Shown here one piece after another: positions 1,506 through 10,032 of a stretch of 12,009 nt of DNA; position 1 is the stretch's first letter; each line of letters opens with the position of its first letter. Below the pieces are notes generated by a model. It did not search any database. It was given only the letters and a program-made list of their open reading frames with translations, and had not been told where the DNA came from. The stretch comes from a virus. The translations under genes were made by a program, and so were the position numbers. The stretch lies in UHGV virus genome UHGV-0151214; one strand, 5' to 3'.

Positions 1506-1955
1506 CTATTTTTTAGTGTAATAATCATCAAAATCGCAAGAAACAGATATCACAAAACCTGAAGTCATAGAAAAAGACAGGGTTTCACATGCCTTTCCGG
1601 CTTGATGGTATGCATTGATGCCACCGTATACGGATTCTCTTGATGAAAACAATGATTTTTCACCGTTTTTTTCTACAAGAATATGCCCATCTGAATCATT
1701 AATAAACCAAACAGAAATAGAGGAGCTTTCGCCAAGGAATGTTCTGTTGAATACCATGGGTGATTTACCCTTGACAACATTTTCTGCGCGCATAATCAGC
1801 TCAGCATTTTTTTTGCTATTTTTTTGTTCTGTATAGATTTTGTCTGCCACAAAATAAACAATGGCAATGGCTAACAAAGATAGGGAAATCAGCAATGCCT
1901 TTTTAATCAATTTTTTTGCATCCCTGTAAATCTCAACTGATAATTTTTCACTCAC
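1506..1955 (-). CDS. Hypothetical membrane-anchored protein (one N-terminal TM helix, about 110-aa C-terminal domain); candidate superinfection-exclusion protein by position (SieA-like locus)
   Basis: Minus-strand ORF with likely GTG start at 1953-1955, preceded by a perfect AAGGAGG Shine-Dalgarno (plus 1961-1967) at 5-nt spacing. Hydrophobic segment ALLISLSLLAIAIVYFVA follows a Lys-rich N-terminus. The longer 221-aa version in the ORF track would overlap the divergent gene and lacks an RBS. It occupies the slot between gene 16 and mnt where P22 carries sieA. Confidence 0.55.
   Translation of the reverse strand: MSEKLSVEIYRDAKKLIKKALLISLSLLAIAIVYFVADKIYTEQKNSKKNAELIMRAENVVKGKSPMVFNRTFLGESSSISVWFINDSDGHILVEKNGEKSLFSSRESVYGGINAYHQAGKACETLSFSMTSGFVISVSCDFDDYYTKK
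1916..1944 (+). promoter_or_regulatory. Candidate sigma70 promoter for the 1986..2351 gene (TTGCAT, 17-bp spacer, GATAAT)
   Basis: TTGCAT at 1916-1921, a 17-bp spacer, GATAAT at 1939-1944, about 40 nt upstream of ATG 1986. It overlaps the 5' end of the divergent minus-strand gene. Motif match only. Confidence 0.3.
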
Positions 1956-1985
1956 ACCAACCTCCTTAGTTTTGCGCAGGATACC

Positions 1986-2351
1986 ATGAAAAAAGTTAAC
2001 ATTGGAAACGTACCAAAGATGCTCGTTCCGCTCTTTGAGAGCGGTACAATTGTGTTTTGTAGAGACTTTCCAGAATGGCAACGCCTGCATCAAAAACTTG
2101 GCGTTGACGTGCATGACTCGGACGCCAACGGAGCGTCTCATACAATGAGTAGCGAGAATGGTGTTTTGCATGTGATAGGCGTGTTCAATGGCAAACTATC
2201 TACTATTGCCCATGAGTGCGCTCACATGGCATTCGATATCTGCTCAAGGGTAGGTGTTGATGTTGAACCAGGAAGAGCCAACGAGACTTACTGCTACTTA
2301 ATGAGCAGGCTTGTTGAGTTCTGCGAGCGACATATCAAAAAGCCGGAGTGA
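1986..2351 (+). CDS. Small (121 aa) hypothetical protein with an HExxH motif (TIAHECAHMAF); possible minimal zincin-like metallopeptidase fold
   Basis: ATG at 1986 with AGGA 4-5 nt upstream; clean 121-codon ORF. The HExxH sits in a predicted helical context with Glu residues 14-20 aa downstream as possible third ligand. No family recognised by eye. Confidence 0.6.
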   Translation: MKKVNIGNVPKMLVPLFESGTIVFCRDFPEWQRLHQKLGVDVHDSDANGASHTMSSENGVLHVIGVFNGKLSTIAHECAHMAFDICSRVGVDVEPGRANETYCYLMSRLVEFCERHIKKPE

Positions 2352-2410
2352 ACCGGCTTGATTATTACTTTTTGCTGTCTGGAGTTCGCTTATCCAATAC
2401 CCAGCCATGA

Positions 2411-2647
2411 CCTGGCTTTTTAGCAACTGCAGATCGCACAATCAATGTTCCATTCCACGGAACAAATCTCTTTTTGGTCAGCATTAACAATGAACCTTAC
2501 GTTCCTATGAAACCCGTTGTAGAAGGCATGGGTATGGTTTGGGCTGCTCAATTTGTTAAATTAAAACAGAGAGTTGTCAAAGGTATTTCGGAAATCGAAA
2601 TACCTTCTGCTGGCGGCGCAGGCTGCACCAAAAAAGAAACCAATTAA
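2411..2647 (+). pseudogene. Remnant of an antirepressor (Ant-like) N-terminal domain; no ATG start at the homologous N-terminus
   Basis: Frame open from stop TGA (2408-2410) to TAA (2645-2647). Translation TINVPFHGTNLFLVSINNEPYVPMKPVVEGMGMVWAAQFVKLKQ aligns with residues about 11-55 of the intact Ant encoded at 3960..4862 ([45 protein letters not shown]). Similarity ends after KLKQ and the frame terminates about 25 codons later. Confidence 0.55.
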
Positions 2648-2690: not shown

Positions 2691-2876
2691 ATGACCATAG
2701 AAGAACGCCTGAACAACATTGAGTTGAATCAAACCCTGCTTGACCAGCGACTTTCAGATCTTGAGCTTAAAGATCTAGATGCGCAAATATTAGAAGCAGA
2801 AGCCAAGCTCTCCAGCTTAAACCACCGTAAGAAGCAAATCCGCAATAGAATTACTCAGGGACGCGGAAGCCGTTGA
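2691..2876 (+). CDS. Small hypothetical coiled-coil protein (61 aa; alternative start ATG 2682)
   Basis: ATG at 2691 with AGGA (2679-2682) 8 nt upstream. Product MTIEERLNNIELNQTLLDQRLSDLELKDLDAQILEAEAKL... has heptad-like Leu spacing and a basic C-terminus. The TTG-initiated 100-aa version in the track overlaps the ant remnant and is less likely. Confidence 0.4.
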   Translation: MTIEERLNNIELNQTLLDQRLSDLELKDLDAQILEAEAKLSSLNHRKKQIRNRITQGRGSR

Positions 2877-2885
2877 AATCCTAGT

Positions 2886-3203
2886 CTATTTTTTCTCAGA
2901 GCTCATATTGTAATAGGTGGTATAAATAGAGATTGATTTCTGACATGCTTCAAGAAATTGCTGCGGAGTCATCCCAAGCCTTGCTTGCTCTGTAGTAAGG
3001 AATCTCTGTAAGAATTCATTCCCACCTGGCATGTTTGTAGATTCTTGGAATATTGCCATTTGTTTGATTGCACCACACATACCAGCCATTTTCGAAGCTA
3101 TCATGAGGCCTTGTATTTCATCAAAACTGCTATCGTCTGATTTTGTTTCTGCGTTAGCTATGCTCGAGAGACACAGGAGCAATAGGATAGCGATGCGTTT
3201 CAT
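2886..3203 (-). CDS. Small secreted (periplasmic) protein, 105 aa, with cleavable signal peptide and two Cys in the mature part; co-transcribed and translationally coupled with mnt
   Basis: Minus-strand ATG (3203-3201) overlaps the mnt stop (3202-3200) as ATGA. N-terminus MKRIAILLLLCLSSIANA-ETK is a classic Sec signal peptide with an AxA cleavage site. Two Cys in the mature part could form a periplasmic disulfide. Confidence 0.6.
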   Translation of the reverse strand: MKRIAILLLLCLSSIANAETKSDDSSFDEIQGLMIASKMAGMCGAIKQMAIFQESTNMPGGNEFLQRFLTTEQARLGMTPQQFLEACQKSISIYTTYYNMSSEKK

Positions 3204-3451
3204 TTTTCACCGTTGCCATGCATACATTTTAACTTCTCAACCTCATGCTCAAGCTCTATCAACCGCGATGCTATAGTTGCAATATCTAGTGCTTGAATAT
3301 GTTTATTTTTTTCAGTCCATGCCTCAAGTGCTGCTACCATCTCAGCATTTAATGAACGAGAATTAGCCTCAGCCAGCTCAATAAGACGTTCCTTTATCTC
3401 TACAGGAAGCCTCAGATTCACTTGAGGGTTTTTGTACTTACGATCAGACAT
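3200..3451 (-). CDS. mnt: Mnt-like ribbon-helix-helix repressor (83 aa)
   Basis: NLRLPVEIKERLIELAEANSRSLNAEMVAAL matches the P22 Mnt N-terminal RHH region (NFRMPMEVREKLKFRAEANGRSMNSELLQIV, from memory). Same length as P22 Mnt (83 aa) and divergent from the arc-ant operon as in P22 immI. AGGA SD 8 nt upstream on the minus strand. Confidence 0.85.
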   Translation of the reverse strand: MSDRKYKNPQVNLRLPVEIKERLIELAEANSRSLNAEMVAALEAWTEKNKHIQALDIATIASRLIELEHEVEKLKCMHGNGEK

Positions 3452-3556: not shown

Positions 3557-3697
3557 ATGAAGGTAAAAACACTGCGTATGCCAGAGAAGTTAGAAAAAAT
3601 CCTTGAAGAGAAAGCAAAGGAAGAGTGTCGCTCATTTAGCGCAGAAGTAATTAAACGGGTGTTGGACAGCCTGAAAAGAGAGGGGATAACAGTATGA
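3557..3697 (+). CDS. arc: Arc-like ribbon-helix-helix repressor (46 aa)
   Basis: [46 protein letters not shown] aligns with P22 Arc (…RWPREVLDLVRKVAEENGRSVNSEIYQRVMESFKKEG, from memory). GGAGGA SD upstream of ATG 3557. Below the ORF-track size cut-off, found by manual translation. Confidence 0.8.
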   Translation: MKVKTLRMPEKLEKILEEKAKEECRSFSAEVIKRVLDSLKREGITV

Positions 3698-3897
3698 GTA
3701 AAGAATGTTGTTTCTGCGGCATTAGCGAATCAGACGCTGATCAAACATACATTTACTCTAAAGAAACAGGTCGGATGCTGTGTAGTGACTGCGTGTTGGA
3801 CATCATAAGATACAAGCATCTTGGATGTTCTGCCAGCATTAGCAATATAGGTGAAGTATACGAAGGGAAAGATATAACTGATAGAGCAGAAAGTTGA
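3694..3897 (+). CDS. Hypothetical small Cys-rich protein (67 aa; possible zinc-ribbon-like), translationally coupled to arc
   Basis: ATG 3694 overlaps the arc stop (3695-3697) as ATGA. Cys at positions 5, 6, 8, 30, 33 and 45 (CCFC … CSDC … C). It lies between arc and ant where P22, as remembered, has a short intercistronic region. Coding status uncertain. Confidence 0.4.
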
Positions 3898-3959
3898 AGC
3901 CCCAACTGCGGGAACAGTCAGGGCTTCGGTTGTCAGTAAATCCGTGGAGAAAAACCAAC

Positions 3960-4862
3960 ATGAATAGTATAGCAATTTTAGAAGCAGTGAACACCTCTTA
4001 CGTACCATTCAACGGTCAGCAAATTATCACCGCCATGGCTGCCGGAGTTGCATATGTTGCGATGAAGCCAATCGTTGAAAACCTTGGAATGAGCTGGTCA
4101 ACGCAGCAAACAAAACTCATGAAGCAGATTAGCAAATTCAACTGTGTTCATATGAACATGGTTGCCGCTGATGGGAAGCTTCGTAAGTTACTCTGCCTTC
4201 CTTTGAAGAAGTTAAATGGATGGCTGTTCAGCATCAACCCTGAGAAAGTTCGTGCTGACATCCGCGATAAACTGATTCAGTACCAGGAAGAATGCTTTAC
4301 TGTGCTGCATGACTACTGGACAAAGGGAAAGGCAGAAAATGCACGTAAGAAAACATCTGTTGATGACAGGACTCCGCTTCGTGATGCTGTAAATATGCTG
4401 GTCAGCAAAAAGCATCTAATGTACCCAGAAGCTTATGCAATGATTCATCAGCGTTTCAATGTGGAAAGTATTGAAGAGCTTGATGCATCTCAGATACCGC
4501 AAGCCGTAGAGTACATCCACAGGGTAGTGCTTGAAGGTGAGTTCATCGGCAAACAAGAAGAGTTACCAGCGCCGAAACTGGATATTAACTTCCCGATTTC
4601 ATGGTTTGCTGAAAATGCACCTTACGCCATTATCAGGCAGCAATGCGGTGATACTGTTGCTCTTGACCGCAGCGCACTCGTTGAATGCAGTCCGGCGTAT
4701 AAACTAATCGATATTCTGACAAAAGCGGGGTATGACGTTTCAGCAGTAAGAGCCGAGCTAAAAGCACTTCGCCATTTAATGGCTGAGCAAAGCTGGGCAC
4801 TTAAAGAGATAGCTTCATTCGCAGCGATACGTGATAGAGCGTGCCACTCAATTAAACTTTAA
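3960..4862 (+). CDS. ant: Antirepressor Ant (300 aa), P22 Ant-like
   Basis: Downstream of arc in the same orientation. ATG 3960 preceded by GGAG; 300 aa, the same length as P22 Ant. Its N-terminal domain is duplicated as a remnant at 2411..2647. The track's upstream start at 3894 overlaps the preceding ORF and lacks an SD. Confidence 0.8.
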
Positions 4863-4985: not shown

Positions 4986-7928
4986 ATGACAGACATTACA
5001 GCCAATGTTGTAGTGAGTATGCCATCGCAACTCTTCACTATGGCACGTTCTTTTAAAGCCGTAGCCAATGGAAAAATTTATATCGGTAAAATTGACACTG
5101 ACCCGGTAAATCCTGAAAACCAGATTCAGGTTTGTGTAGAGAACGAAGACGGTTCTCACGTTCCTGTTTCGCAACCAATCATTATTAACGCTGCTGGTTA
5201 TCCGGTATACAACGGACAGATTGCCAAGTTTGTAACCGTGCAAGGCCATTCTATGGCTGTTTACGATGCTTATGGGGCGCAGCAGTTCTATTTTCCTAAT
5301 GTGCTGAAGTATGATCCTGATCAGTTACGGCAGCAATTAGAAGACCCAGATGGAGCGAATAAATACCCAAAACTTCAGATAGCAAGATGGAGAGACAGTT
5401 ATGATGTAAGAGGTTGGGGGGCTATTGGTGATGGTGTTCATGATGATACATCAGCTCTATCAGAATTACTTTCTGTTGCAACAGGTGGTGAAAAGATAGA
5501 TGGGCGAGGGCTTACTTTTAAAGTATCAACTCTTCCAGATGTCAGTCGATTTAAAAATGCTCGTTTTTTATTTGAGAGAATACCGGGTCAGCCTCTTTTT
5601 TATGCTTCTGAAGATTTTATCCAGGGAGAGTTATTTAAAATTACAGATACACCGTGGTACAACGCCTGGACGCAGGATAAAACGTTTGTATATGACAATG
5701 TCATCTATGCGCCTTTTATGGCTGGAGACCGCCATGGTGTAAATAACCTCCATGTTGCATGGGTTCGCTCAGGAGATGACGGGAAGACCTGGACAACGCC
5801 GGAATGGCTTACAGATTTACATGAAAACTATCCCACAGTTAACTATCACTGCATGAGTATGGGGGTTGTCAGAAATCGCCTTTTTGCTGTAATTGAGACG
5901 CGGACCGTGAGCGGAAATAAACTGCAGGTTGCAGAGTTGTGGGATCGCCCAATGAGTCGCAGCCTTCGCGTTTATGGTGGTATAACGAAAGCAGCAAATC
6001 AGCAAGTCGCTTATATTCGCATTACTGATCACGGATTATTTGCTGGTGATTTTGTCAACTTCTCAAACTCTGGTGTTACAGGTGTTACCGGGAATATGAC
6101 GGTGACTACTGTTATTGATAAAAATACCTTTACAGTTACGACGCAAAATACCCAGGATGTGGATCAGAATAACGAGGGTAGATACTGGAGTTTTGGTACA
6201 TCATTTCACTCGTCACCATGGAGAAAAACCAGTCTTGGAACTATTCCTTCTTTTGTTGACGGAAGCACTCCTGTTACTGAGATTCACAGTTTTGCGACGA
6301 TTAGCGATAACAGTTTTGCTGTTGGCTACCATAATGGTGATATTGGTCCACGCGAGCTTGGGATACTCTATTTCTCTGATGCTTTCGGTTCTCCTGGTAG
6401 CTTTGTTCGCAGACGCATACCTGTAGAATATGAGGCGAATGCATCTGAGCCATGTGTAAAATATTATGATGGCATTCTGTATCTGACGACCAGGGGGACA
6501 TTAAGTACTCAACCCGGTAGTTCATTGCACAGAAGCTCTGATTTAGGTACATCATGGAATTCTCTTCGCTTCCCAAATAATGTTCATCACTCAAACCTTC
6601 CTTTTGCCAAAGTTGGCGATGAGCTGATTATTTTTGGCAGTGAGCGCGCATTTGGTGAGTGGGAAGGAGGAGAACCTGATAACCGTTATGCAGGAAATTA
6701 TCCAAGAACATTTATGACCAGAGTTAACGTCAATGGGTGGAGTCTGGATAATGTAGAGTGGGTTAATGTTACTGATCAGATTTATCAGGGCGGAATAGTT
6801 AACTCTGCGGTTGGTGTTGGTTCAGTTTGTATCAAAGACAACTGGCTGTACTACATTTTCGGTGGGGAAGACTTTCTAAACCCATGGAGCATAGGGGATA
6901 ACAACAGAAAATATCCTTATGTTCACGATGGTCACCCGGCTGATTTGTATTGTTTCAGGGTGAAAATTAAACAGGAAGAATTTGTTTCAAGGGATTTTGT
7001 CTACGGAGCCACTCCTAACAGAACGCTTCCTACTTTTATGTCGACGTCAGGCGTGAGGACGGTTCCTGTACCCGTTGATTTCACAGATGATGTTGCCGTC
7101 CAGTCACTGACTGTCCATGCAGGTACATCAGGACAAGTTCGCGCGGAAGTCAAACTTGAGGGTAATTACGCCATTATTGCGAAGAAAGTACCGTCTGATG
7201 ATGTTACCGCTCAGAGATTAATCGTTAGCGGCGGTGAAACAACGTCTTCAGCAGATGGTGCAATGATAACGTTGCATGGTTCCGGAAGCAGTACTCCACG
7301 TCGCGCGGTATATAACGCACTCGAACATCTTTTTGAGAACGGAGATGTTAAACCTTATCTTGATAATGTAAATGCTCTTGGTGGTCCGGGAAACAGGTTC
7401 TCGACAGTTTATCTTGGCTCCAATCCTGTGGTTACCAGTGACGGAACATTAAAGACAGAGCCGGTCTCTCCTGACGAAGCATTGCTGGATGCCTGGGGTG
7501 ACGTCAGGTATATCGCTTATAAATGGCTGAACGCTGTCGCTATAAAGGGGGAAGAAGGGGCGAGGATACATCATGGTGTAATCGCGCAGCAACTTCGTGA
7601 TGTTCTTATTTCTCACGGACTCATGGAAGAAGAAAGCACAACATGCCGCTATGCCTTTCTTTGCTATGACGATTATCCCGCAGTATATGATGACGTCATT
7701 ACTGGCCAAAGGGAAATGCCGCTGACTGATAATGACGGGAGCATCATTGTTGATGAGGATGATAATCCAGTGATGGTAATGGAAGACATCATTGAGCGCG
7801 TTGAAATAACGCCAGCAGGATCTAGATGGGGGGTCAGACCTGATCTCTTATTCTATATCGAGGCAGCATGGCAGCGCAGAGAAATGGATAAGATAAAAGA
7901 GCGGGTTCAGTCTCTGGAAGAACGTTAA
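4986..7928 (+). CDS. Tailspike protein (980 aa): P22-type head-binding N-terminal domain, sialidase-like catalytic region with two Asp-boxes (probable endosialidase, GH58-like), and C-terminal self-cleaving chaperone domain (peptidase S74-like)
   Basis: N-terminal about 110 aa ([11 protein letters not shown]…[22 protein letters not shown]…VLKYDPDQ) closely matches the P22 gp9 head-binding domain. Asp-boxes SGDDGKTW (aa 262-269, nt 5769-5792) and SSDLGTSW (aa 517-524, nt 6534-6557). [15 protein letters not shown] motif is also present. The C-terminus has S-DGTLK (Ser818 at nt 7437-7439) and [11 protein letters not shown], resembling the autoproteolytic chaperone domain of endosialidases and tail fibres. 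Confidence 0.85.
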
Positions 7929-8234: not shown

Positions 8235-8639
8235 ATGTCTGCTCAAGTAACAAGTGAGCAATTAAATCAGTTGCTTAGTTTTGGTTCTCTTGCTGCAGTT
8301 ATTGCAGGTGTCCCTCCGGAGGTTGCTTTAGGGGCTTTGGCTGGGGCGGTAATTTTTGTTACCTCTGCAGTAGAGTACCCTATCCGTCGCCGGGTGCTCC
8401 TGTCGATGCTCAGCTTTCTTTGCGGCCTTCTCTTTTACAAACCAGCAGCATCAATTCTTATCGGCATAGCCAGCCTGATCCCTACCATCACGCAGGACTC
8501 TTTTGAAAAAGGGATTGTTTTCTCTGCAGGCGCATTCGTGTCAGCAATTGTCGCTGTGCGTATTGGTATATGGCTCTATCACCGTTCCGATAATCCACGC
8601 GAGTTAATTCCGGGGAGAAAAGACGATGGTAACGCATGA
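8235..8639 (+). CDS. Holin-like or antiholin-like membrane protein (134 aa, about 4 hydrophobic segments, charged C-terminal tail)
   Basis: ATG 8235 with AGGAG 7 nt upstream. Multiple TM-length hydrophobic stretches and a charged C-terminus ([19 protein letters not shown]). First gene of a cluster with a second holin-like gene, endolysin and spanins. Confidence 0.5.
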   Translation: MSAQVTSEQLNQLLSFGSLAAVIAGVPPEVALGALAGAVIFVTSAVEYPIRRRVLLSMLSFLCGLLFYKPAASILIGIASLIPTITQDSFEKGIVFSAGAFVSAIVAVRIGIWLYHRSDNPRELIPGRKDDGNA

Positions 8640-8934
8640 GTTTTTTTTGCTTATCACTAATGCAGTTATTTGCACTGGCATAGCAATTCGCGTTGTCACA
8701 TTCCGGCGTAACGGCTCTCAACATCGAAGGTGGGGAGGATGGCTTGCTTATTTCCTGATTGTTGCTGCGGCCAGTATTCCTGTTCGAGTCGCCTATGCAA
8801 TCTGGTTACGTACGCCAATGGCTGTGGATTTATCTGAGGTCATTATCAACGCTGTCATGCTGGCTGCGGTTATTAAAACGCGCGGTAACGTCGTTCAAAT
8901 TTTTAAAGTATCGAGGTCTAAACATGGAGATTAA
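8626..8934 (+). CDS. Putative holin (102 aa, 3 TM segments, basic C-terminal tail)
   Basis: Three hydrophobic segments and C-terminal [19 protein letters not shown]. Overlaps the preceding gene by 14 nt and the endolysin start by 11 nt. Confidence 0.6.
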
Positions 8935-9553
8935 ACAATTCCAGCGAGCTGCTGGTATCAGCGAGGCACTGGCCGCACGCTGGTTCTCGCATATAACTTC
9001 TGCGATGAAAGAGTTTGGTATCAGCAAAGCAGAAGATCAGGCAATGTTTATTGCTCAAGTCGGGCATGAGTCTGGGGGCTTCACCAGGTTGCAGGAGAAT
9101 TTCAACTACAGTGTCAGCGGACTGGCTAACTTCGTTCGGGCTGGGCGTCTCACTCAGGGGCAGGCTAATGCACTGGGGCGCCGTGCTGGTGAACCACCAT
9201 TGCCACTTGAGCGCCAGCGCGCGATCGCAAATCTGGTATACAGCAAACGCATGGGGAACAATGCCCCTGGTGATGGCTGGAATTACCGAGGGCGCGGACT
9301 TATCCAGATTACCGGTTTGAATAACTATCGTGATTGCGGAAACGGTCTGAAGGTTGACCTGCTGGAGAGCCCTGAACTGCTGGCGCAGGACGAATATGCG
9401 GCTCGTAGCGCGGCGTGGTTCTTCGCCAGCAAAGGATGCATGAAGTATACCGGCGATATTGCACGTGTAACTCTGATTATCAATGGTGGCCGGAACGGCA
9501 TCGACGACCGGCGAGCGCGGTACATCACTGCCAGTAAGGTGCTGGCGGTATGA
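8924..9553 (+). CDS. Endolysin, glycoside hydrolase family 19 (chitinase-like phage lysozyme), 209 aa
   Basis: GH19 signatures [12 protein letters not shown] (catalytic Glu in HES), a second Glu in LQENFNY, and [19 protein letters not shown] 8924 preceded by GAGG. The track's longer version from 8759 reads through the holin in a frame with no lysozyme similarity. Confidence 0.85.
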
Positions 9554-10032
9554 TCTGGGCATTCGTAAAAGCATACTGGAAACAGTTTCTTATCGTGGCA
9601 GTGCTTGCTGTTCTGGTCATATCAGGAGTGGTTGCCTGGAATATACACGGCAGTCGCCAGTACGATGCCGGGTATGCTCAGGCGGAAGAAGACCGCAAAG
9701 CCGAAGAAGACAAAGTTCGTCAGTACTACGAACAGGAGAAAGTGACCAATGAACGTGAAGCTCAGCAGAGGATCGACCAGGCGCGCAATGATGCTCTTGA
9801 TGCTGCCGCTAGCGCTGGCCGGTTGCAGCAACAACTCTTTGCCATCCGTGAGCAGCTCAGGCAGTATAACGCCATTGTCGGCGCTGGGTCGTCAGCCGCA
9901 GACACCGGAGTTTTGCTTGCCGACGTGCTCAGCAAATCTCTCGAGAGAAACAGACAACTGGCAGAGTATGCTGACCGGGCAGCCGAAGCCGGAAGAGTCT
10001 GCGAAAAACAGTACGACACTTTGACCAGATAG
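9550..10032 (+). CDS. i-spanin (Rz-like inner-membrane spanin subunit), 160 aa
   Basis: ATGA overlap with the endolysin stop. N-terminal TM ([18 protein letters not shown]), a long charged coiled-coil periplasmic region, and a Cys near the C-terminus. Sits immediately after the endolysin and contains an embedded lipoprotein ORF. Confidence 0.75.
9788..10024 (+). CDS. o-spanin (Rz1-like outer-membrane lipoprotein), embedded in the +1 frame of the i-spanin gene
   Basis: [13 protein letters not shown] has a lipobox (LAGC) and a signal-peptidase II site. The mature part is about 58 aa, Ser/Pro-rich with additional Cys. It lies entirely within 9550..10032 in another frame. Start taken at ATG 9788; the track's 9749 start adds an unlikely N-terminal extension. 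Confidence 0.65.
   Translation: MMLLMLPLALAGCSNNSLPSVSSSGSITPLSALGRQPQTPEFCLPTCSANLSRETDNWQSMLTGQPKPEESAKNSTTL

What the first reader, a model, noticed from the sequence alone, without database searches (positions are those of the whole stretch)
1986..2351. Small HExxH protein: possible minimal zincin, unusually with Cys inside the motif
The motif is H-E-C-A-H followed by MAFDICSRVGVDVEPGRANETY, giving candidate third-ligand Glu residues at +14 to +20, a spacing compatible with gluzincin-like folds. At 121 aa it is much smaller than Lit- or ImmA/IrrE-type phage-associated metalloproteases. A short linear motif can occur by chance, so this needs a fold-level check.
Basis: inference. Interest (0 to 1): 0.6.

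Follow-up and report, generated by a model that had tools for sequence, protein, structure and literature searches.

The report
Small phage zinc protease, target unknown
The ORF is hkcC, a long-known "unknown function" gene of P22-like phages, and it most likely encodes a very small zinc-dependent protease from a widespread but uncharacterised phage family whose target is still unknown.

The parts
1986..2351 (+). hkcC coding sequence (121 aa plus stop), the predicted minimal gluzincin
   Evidence: ORF list and sequence. 99.2% identical to HK620 HkcC NP_112089.1 and to the same stretch of P22. PHROG 1365, E 1.7e-39. PGAP annotates the same CDS. 29 synonymous against 3 non-synonymous changes.
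1978..1981 (+). Shine-Dalgarno-like AGGA, 4 nt before the ATG
   Evidence: Read directly from the sequence; inference only.
2211..2225 (+). Codons for H76-E77-C78-A79-H80: two proposed zinc ligands and the proposed catalytic base
   Evidence: Invariant H, E, H in 115 and 128 diverse homologues. Lies in predicted helix 71-88.
2253..2255 (+). G90, conserved glycine just after the active-site helix
   Evidence: At least 90% conserved; invariant in the 10 context-diverse homologues.
2280..2297 (+). N99-E100-T101-Y102-C103-Y104: proposed third zinc ligand E100, with Y104 at E+4 and a small residue at E+3
   Evidence: E100 99-100%, Y104 95%, C103 79% (otherwise Ala or Thr), N99 69%. E100 is the first residue of predicted helix 100-116. 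The second His to Glu spacing is 20 in 200 and 19 in 43 of 254 sequences. It aligns with thermolysin NEAISD in a weak PDB hit.
2340..2359 (.). Hairpin overlapping the hkcC stop codon, a bidirectional terminator
   Evidence: Terminator scan finds it on both strands. Annotated as tORF59A in HK620 and t mnt in P22.
1506..1955 (-). Context, not part of the enzyme: a divergent 149-aa membrane-type gene in the variable 'sieA slot'. The listed 221-aa ORF 1506-2171 is an antisense extension over hkcC.
   Evidence: PGAP CDS in an identical E. coli prophage. No Pfam, PHROG, NCBIfam or PADLOC hit. 12 unrelated sequence types occupy this slot in 81 loci.

Best explanation
hkcC encodes a soluble cytoplasmic zinc metallopeptidase of about 13.6 kDa with a minimal gluzincin architecture. 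The N-terminal part is a small sheet with one helix (strands 11-13, 21-25, 49-56, 59-66; helix 28-37). It is followed by the active-site helix 71-88 carrying H76-E77-x-x-H80, a loop starting at conserved G90, and a 'glutamate helix' beginning at N99-E100. Proposed mechanism (inferred): H76, H80 and E100 bind one Zn2+, and E77 activates the zinc-bound water. Y104 sits one helical turn after E100, at the position of Asp170 in thermolysin's NExxSD motif. It may support a His ligand or the transition state. The gene reads in the direction of the late operon (gene 16 to tailspike). It lies antisense to the flanking leftward transcription units that P22 expresses in the lysogen (sieA, mnt). It is therefore most likely made late in lytic growth. 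It is an accessory function that acts on a still unknown host or phage protein, not on the Mnt/Arc repressors. Shown here: the gene is real, the family exists, the four residues are invariant, the secondary-structure layout is as predicted, and the family is restricted to phages. Inferred: metal binding, catalysis, timing of expression and substrate class.
Confidence: 0.62

Rival explanations
1. ImmA/IrrE-type anti-repressor protease that cleaves the neighbouring Mnt/Arc (or C2) repressors.
For: hkcC lies in the immI region near mnt and arc. ImmA/IrrE proteins are HExxH...E zincins encoded next to their repressor substrates (established knowledge). Two BFVD neighbours are labelled IrrE, but only at E 0.03-0.05.
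Against: HK620 has a 99% identical hkcC but only remnants of mnt and ant. Homologues in virulent T7-like and N4-like phages and in late modules have no adjacent HTH or Arc gene. None of 115 members hit Peptidase_M78 at E<=0.1. The sequence downstream of hkcC falls into 8 unrelated types.
Confidence: 0.04
2. SprT/Spartan/Wss1-like DNA-dependent protease that removes proteins stuck or crosslinked on phage DNA before packaging.
For: Sub-threshold SprT-like Pfam hits in 19 of 115 relatives. SPRTN ranks third in Foldseek against the PDB (E 0.18). Some relatives are labelled SprT-like. Several homologues sit beside terminase, portal, Endonuclease VII or RusA genes.
Against: Where an alignment was shown, the SprT-like match covers only the 18-residue HExxH helix (11.6 bits against a cut-off of 25.6). 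hhalign against E. coli SprT/YggI gave 5.6% probability. The family has an invariant Glu as third ligand, where E. coli SprT shows a His after the motif and Spartan/Wss1 use His (own knowledge). There is no zinc ribbon or basic tail. The pI is 6.4 (family median 6.06), so it is not a typical DNA binder.
Confidence: 0.1
3. Prophage-expressed defence moron. A Lit-like latent protease made in the lysogen that aborts or excludes superinfecting phages, in keeping with its position beside the sieA slot.
For: It sits next to a hypervariable slot that holds sieA in P22 and other small membrane or lipoprotein genes elsewhere. It is followed by a hairpin terminator and preceded by a weak promoter-like site, a moron-like layout. 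Lit is an HExxH protease encoded by a prophage (established knowledge).
Against: Homologues are present in strictly virulent phage families. There is no PADLOC hit. The gene is antisense to both flanking lysogenic transcripts. The promoter scan found no more sites than chance, and the candidate site lies in the variable upstream DNA.
Confidence: 0.1
4. Not an enzyme: a zinc-binding or zincin-derived scaffold that acts by binding (a pseudo-protease or inhibitor), or a metal hydrolase acting on a non-peptide substrate.
For: Structural similarity to solved peptidases is weak. C103 next to E100 could fill the fourth coordination site. One natural variant has HKAAH.
Against: The general-base Glu77 is 99-100% conserved, which inactive zincin derivatives usually lose. 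C103 is Ala or Thr in 21% of members.
Confidence: 0.1

Closest known systems
HK620 HkcC / P22 hkcC (PHROG 1365)
   Same: Same gene: 99.2% amino-acid identity and the same position between gene 16 (plus a small leftward gene) and the immI/tailspike region. The literature lists it as of unknown function in the 'ant moron' (PMC2629481, PMC4837284).
   Different: Nothing substantive. What is added here is the functional reading (metallopeptidase signature, family breadth, contexts), which I did not find in the papers held.
Gluzincins with thermolysin-type spacing (MEROPS M4: HExxH-x19-NExxSD)
   Same: HExxH, a Glu exactly 20 residues after the second His and preceded by Asn, a small residue at E+3, a conserved residue at E+4, and two consecutive helices.
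   Different: 121 aa against about 316 aa. There is no C-terminal domain. Y104 replaces Asp at E+4. The sequence match is not significant (E 0.09 for the single sequence, 1.3 for the profile). There is no Peptidase_M4 Pfam hit.
SprT-like / Spartan / Wss1 minimal zincins (Pfam PF10263)
   Same: Small single-domain HExxH proteins that are common in phages. There are sub-threshold profile hits, and relatives carry automated 'SprT-like' labels.
   Different: The third ligand is Glu, not His. There is no zinc ribbon or DNA-binding tail. The Pfam threshold is not reached and the match is confined to the motif helix.
Minigluzincins (proabylysin/projannalysin, about 105 aa soluble archaeal scaffolds related to M48/M56; own knowledge; term also used for Wss1/Spartan in PMC4559962)
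   Same: Comparable size and concept: a stand-alone catalytic core with HExxH plus Glu.
ImmA/IrrE (M78) and CapP; Lit (U49)
   Different: Those proteins are much larger, and no Pfam hit links them to this family. ImmA/IrrE also need a partner repressor gene, which is absent here.

Membership tests
HkcC orthologue group / PHROG 1365 | Full-length significant match to the family profile and to HK620 HkcC | tested here: met
   PHROG 1365 at E 1.7e-39 over residues 1-121; 99.2% identity to HK620/P22.
Zincin / gluzincin metallopeptidases (clan MA) | Conserved HExxH located in an alpha-helix | tested here: met
   H76, E77 and H80 invariant in 115 and 128 homologues; predicted helix 71-88 at pLDDT about 95.
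Zincin / gluzincin metallopeptidases (clan MA) | Third zinc ligand is a Glu on the next helix downstream | tested here: met
   E100 is 99-100% conserved, the spacing is 20 or 19 in 243 of 254 sequences, and it is the first residue of helix 100-116. The geometry itself was not measured.
Zincin / gluzincin metallopeptidases (clan MA) | Significant fold similarity to solved zincin catalytic domains | tested here: inconclusive
Zincin / gluzincin metallopeptidases (clan MA) | Binds zinc and hydrolyses peptide bonds | not testable with these tools
   Needs biochemistry.
SprT-like (Pfam PF10263) | Score above the Pfam gathering threshold | tested here: not met
   No hit for the window protein at E<=1. 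19 of 115 relatives hit only below threshold, best E 1e-4. One example scored 11.6 bits against a cut-off of 25.6 and covered only the motif helix.
SprT-like (Pfam PF10263) | His as third ligand, and a zinc-binding or DNA-binding extension | tested here: not met
   No conserved His downstream of the motif; Glu is conserved instead. The protein ends at residue 121 and has pI 6.4. hhalign against E. coli SprT gave 5.6% probability.
ImmA/IrrE (Peptidase_M78, COG2856) | Pfam match, and a gene adjacent to an HTH or Arc repressor substrate | tested here: not met
   No M78 hit in 115 members. HK620 lacks mnt/arc/ant. No repressor gene lies next to the homologues in virulent phages.
Thermolysin family M4 | Significant match to the M4 catalytic and C-terminal domains | tested here: not met
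   Only a motif-level alignment at E 0.09-1.5; no Pfam hit; 121 aa in total.
Known anti-phage defence proteins (PADLOC) incl. Lit-type | Match to a defence-system model | tested here: not met
   No PADLOC hit at E<=1.

The most novel reading that the evidence does not exclude
The HkcC family is a phage-wide class of minimal zinc proteases made together with the late structural, packaging and lysis proteins. Their job would be to cut a host protein, for example an immune sensor that is triggered by late proteins such as terminase, portal or capsid. Alternatively they could be packaged and delivered with the ejection proteins to disarm the next host. Either way this would be a new type of phage counter-defence enzyme, present in the model phage P22.
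Probability: 0.15. Interest if true: 0.75.

Novelty: new variant of a known kind. Interest (0 to 1): 0.42.

Why it matters
P22 and HK620 are model phages, and hkcC has been listed as "unknown function" since the HK620 record (AF335538; function "unknown"). Recognising it as the founder of a large family of about 120-residue HExxH-x19-(N)ExxxY proteins gives a concrete hypothesis that point mutants can test. The family is confined to phages and has no Pfam model. It also marks an uncharacterised protease activity that many temperate and virulent phages carry in their late gene modules. If the substrate proves to be a host defence or housekeeping protein, this would add a new enzymatic counter-measure. 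If not, it remains a tidy re-annotation.

Tried and rejected
1. Pfam, NCBIfam and PADLOC scans of the protein gave nothing meaningful. The lantibiotic hits are compositional noise.
3. hhalign of the family profile against the single E. coli SprT/YggI sequence gave no relationship.
With the close alignment it returned only near-identical P22-like loci.
5. I looked for fusion partners in the longer family members (173-283 aa) and found no Pfam domains.
6. I looked for a conserved neighbouring gene and found none. Neighbours differ in every lineage.
7. Idea: HkcC removes the N-terminal 20 residues of ejection protein gp7. Rejected, because that cleavage is attributed to the host OpdA protease (PMC8402733).
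8. Idea: the Cys residues form a cluster or disulfide. Rejected, because there is no co-occurrence beyond expectation.
9. Idea: a plasmid leading-region anti-defence gene. Rejected: only 8 of 72,556 plasmid records match, and several of those are phage-sized replicons.
10. Literature searches for hkcC, and for SprT-like proteins in phages, found no functional study.
11. The 221-aa antisense ORF 1506-2171 was rejected as a gene. The real gene starts at GTG 1955.

Full report
**What is there.** The window is the late-region end of a P22-like (Lederbergvirus-type) prophage of E. coli K1 strains.
- Gene 16-type DNA-transfer protein, 70-1488.
- A small leftward membrane-type gene, 1506-1955.
- The target ORF, 1986-2351.
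- A remnant of an ant gene and two small morons.
- mnt (3200-3451, minus strand), arc (3557-3697) and ant (3894-4862).
- An endosialidase tailspike (4986-7928) and a lysis cassette.
- The chromosomal genes yfgI/yfgH.

It has 121 codons, HECAH at residues 76-80, E94 at +14 and E100 at +20.

**Is it more than chance?** The motif alone is not. In shuffles of this His- and Glu-rich sequence, 2.6% contain HExxH and 0.29% also have a Glu at +19/+20. A non-coding frame in the same window also contains HEKCH. Comparative data settle the question.
- The ORF is hkcC of phages HK620 and P22 (99.2% identical). It belongs to PHROG 1365, annotated "unknown function" (E 1.7e-39).
- In 83 loci there are 37 distinct nucleotide alleles. 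They differ by 29 synonymous and only 3 non-synonymous codon changes. So the protein is under selection, not merely the promoter and terminator DNA that overlap it.
- An exhaustive HMMER scan of 1.84 billion cluster representatives found 278 clusters at E<=1e-3. Nearly all are proteins of 100-160 residues.
- In alignments of 115 and 128 such sequences (mean column identity 21%), H76, E77, H80 and E100 are invariant or 99% conserved. G49, G90 and Y104 are at least 90% conserved.
- The distance from the second His to the Glu is 20 residues in 200 sequences and 19 in 43, out of 254.
- Of the seven sequences that lack HExxH, six are frameshifted, truncated or fused gene calls and one is an HKAAH variant.

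**The Cys.** C78 is invariant only among close enterobacterial relatives. Across the family the position is Leu 35%, Cys 29% or Ala 16%, which fits a buried hydrophobic position. The various Cys positions do not co-occur beyond expectation. There is therefore no sign of a Cys cluster or disulfide. C103 is 79% conserved, sits three residues after E100, and is otherwise Ala or Thr. It looks like a small packing residue, as Ser169 is in thermolysin's NEAISD. A role as a fourth ligand or "cysteine switch" cannot be excluded.

**Structure.** AlphaFold2 with 19 homologues gave pLDDT 89.3 and pTM 0.83. The elements are strands 11-13 and 21-25, helix 28-37, strands 49-56 and 59-66, helix 71-88 (containing HExxH) and helix 100-116 (starting at E100). 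This is the order of elements in the zincin catalytic core: a sheet with a backing helix, the active-site helix, then the "glutamate helix" of gluzincins. The comparison with zincin topology rests on established knowledge of the fold.

- Foldseek against the PDB found nothing at E<0.1, and SPRTN ranked third.
- The AFDB library was unavailable.
- Against predicted viral structures there are 26 matches at E<=1e-3 (TM up to 0.82). All are small phage proteins from phages of Pseudomonas, Ralstonia, Achromobacter, Erwinia, Serratia and Eggerthella, and from crAss-like phages. A few are labelled SprT-like or metalloprotease.
- The tools return no coordinates, so I could not measure the His/His/Glu geometry. 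This is the main gap.

**Remote sequence relationships.**
- The single sequence hits B. cereus neutral protease and thermolysin at E 0.09-0.7. The alignment superposes HECAH on HELTH and GRANET on GAINEA, which contains E166, the third zinc ligand of thermolysin.
- The family profile finds 13 PDB sequences at E<10, and all of them are zincins aligned on the motif helix.
- 19 of 115 members give sub-threshold SprT-like Pfam hits (best E 1e-4). A few hit DUF4344, M48 or DA1.
- Where an alignment was shown, the SprT-like match covers only the 18-residue motif helix and scores 11.6 bits against a cut-off of 25.6.
- A profile comparison with E. coli SprT/YggI was negative.

The protein is therefore a zincin by signature and layout, but it belongs to no described family.

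**Context.**
- In P22 and HK620 the gene lies between gene 16 (plus a leftward gene) and the immI/tailspike region. It points the same way as the late operon. The annotated sieA promoter overlaps its 5' end, and a bidirectional terminator overlaps its stop codon.
- Among 81 loci with HkcC at least 99% identical, the 570 nt upstream fall into 12 unrelated sequence types. These include sieA, hkcB, lipoproteins, small membrane proteins and the 149-aa protein here. The 600 nt downstream fall into 8 types. hkcC is thus a constant island beside a hypervariable cargo slot, with no fixed partner.
- HK620 keeps hkcC but has only remnants of mnt and ant.
- More distant homologues (23-40% identical) all keep H76, E77, H80, G90, E100 and Y104. 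Their positions are:
  - after the lysis cassette and before dec/terS in L, ST64T and epsilon34 (orf129);
  - directly after a lysozyme gene and before Endonuclease VII;
  - between a tail-fibre gene and holin/lysozyme;
  - upstream of terS/TerL;
  - between TerL and portal;
  - after lysozyme in mEp554;
  - after endolysin and spanin at the right end of the T7-like Ralstonia phage RSB3;
  - among small genes in N4-like phages phCDa and ECBP1;
  - beside helicase and queuosine genes.
- Some P22-like phages carry both paralogues.
- Only 8 of 72,556 plasmid records have a match.

**Interpretation.** The best reading is a soluble zinc metallopeptidase with a minimal gluzincin core. There is no signal peptide or membrane segment, and the pI is 6.4. 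It is probably made with the late genes and serves an accessory role in lytic growth. The timing is inferred from gene orientation, from the known read-through of the P22 late transcript to gene 9, and from the late-module positions of most homologues. The substrate is unknown.

The rivals fare as follows.
- Repressor cleavage (ImmA-like) is unlikely, because HK620 and the virulent phages lack such partners.
- A prophage defence role (Lit-like) is made less likely by the virulent-phage homologues and by the absence of a PADLOC hit.
- A Spartan-like role on DNA-protein adducts is possible. However, the protein is not basic, has no DNA-binding extension and uses Glu rather than His as third ligand.
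- Processing of ejection protein gp7 is already attributed to the host OpdA protease (PMC8402733).

**Novelty and score.** The gene itself is long known. Two papers list it as of unknown function (PMC2629481, PMC4837284), and PGAP calls it hypothetical. New here are the signature HExxH-x19-(N)ExxxY, the size and phage-restricted spread of the family, and its late-module contexts. That makes it a new family-level variant of a well-known enzyme kind. It is a useful, testable re-annotation in a model phage, but not a surprise in kind. Interest 0.42.

Noticed in passing
window 1506-1955 (-) and the same slot in L003-L082: The space between gene 16 and hkcC is a hypervariable cargo slot. 12 unrelated small leftward genes occupy it in 81 otherwise near-identical loci: sieA, hkcB, lipoproteins and small membrane proteins. 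The 149-aa protein here, which has an N-terminal hydrophobic stretch, has no Pfam, PHROG, NCBIfam or PADLOC match. These may be alternative superinfection-exclusion genes.
   Followed up: partly
window 1506-2171 (-): The listed 221-aa ORF is an artefact. An antisense frame over the 5' end of hkcC stays open (MQNTILATHCMRRS...) in almost all related loci and extends whatever gene sits upstream. PGAP starts the real gene at GTG 1955.
   Followed up: yes
window 2474-2647 (+): A 57-aa ORF is a remnant of the N-terminus of an antirepressor (PHROG 524 Ant, E 2.6e-17; 50% identical over 28 aa to the intact Ant at 3894-4862). It marks a mosaic junction just beyond the point (about 2419) where similarity to P22 ends.
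   Followed up: yes
window 2691-2876 (+) and 2886-3203 (-): Two small morons of unknown function lie between hkcC and mnt. One is a 61-aa coiled-coil-like protein (PHROG 7586). The other is a 105-aa protein with a signal-peptide-like N-terminus (PHROG 19844). Both recur in several related prophages.
   Followed up: partly
window 3694-3897 (+): A Cys-rich 67-aa ORF (CCFC...CSDC, PHROG 7150, unknown function) overlaps the arc stop codon (ATGA). It fills the arc-ant interval where P22 has the sar antisense RNA region.
   Followed up: partly
window 4986-7928 and 8235-10032: The tailspike is an endosialidase (K1 capsule-specific, as in CUS-3-type prophages). Directly after it come two holin-family genes, a GH19 endolysin and an Rz-like spanin, and then the chromosomal genes yfgI/yfgH. 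A lysis cassette after the tailspike is not the P22 gene order. It may belong to a second, decayed prophage.
   Followed up: partly
phage records ST160, SE1, UAB_Phi20, ST-32; L095 3501-3890: Some P22-like phages carry two diverged paralogues (38-40% identical). One is hkcC in the ant moron. The other is orf129 after the lysis cassette, next to the decoration protein gene dec.
   Followed up: partly
L086, L088, L095, L096, L098 (homologue loci): In 5 of the 11 independent contexts tallied, family members lie within one or two genes of an endolysin, holin or spanin gene. In four others they lie beside terminase or portal genes. It was not resolved whether this reflects a link to lysis or packaging, or only the habit of accessory genes to collect at module boundaries.
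   Followed up: partly
proteins P0012, P0015, P0027, P0028, P0029, P0166: Frameshifted, truncated or fused hkcC alleles exist in databases, including one fused to the C-terminal domain of an antirepressor. One distant member has HKAAH in place of HExxH. This suggests occasional decay or loss of activity.
   Followed up: no
window 2292-2294 (C103): A Cys three residues after the proposed Glu ligand is 79% conserved family-wide. It could be only a small packing residue, or it could be a fourth ligand or redox switch like the cysteine switch described for Wss1 (PMC4559962).
   Followed up: no
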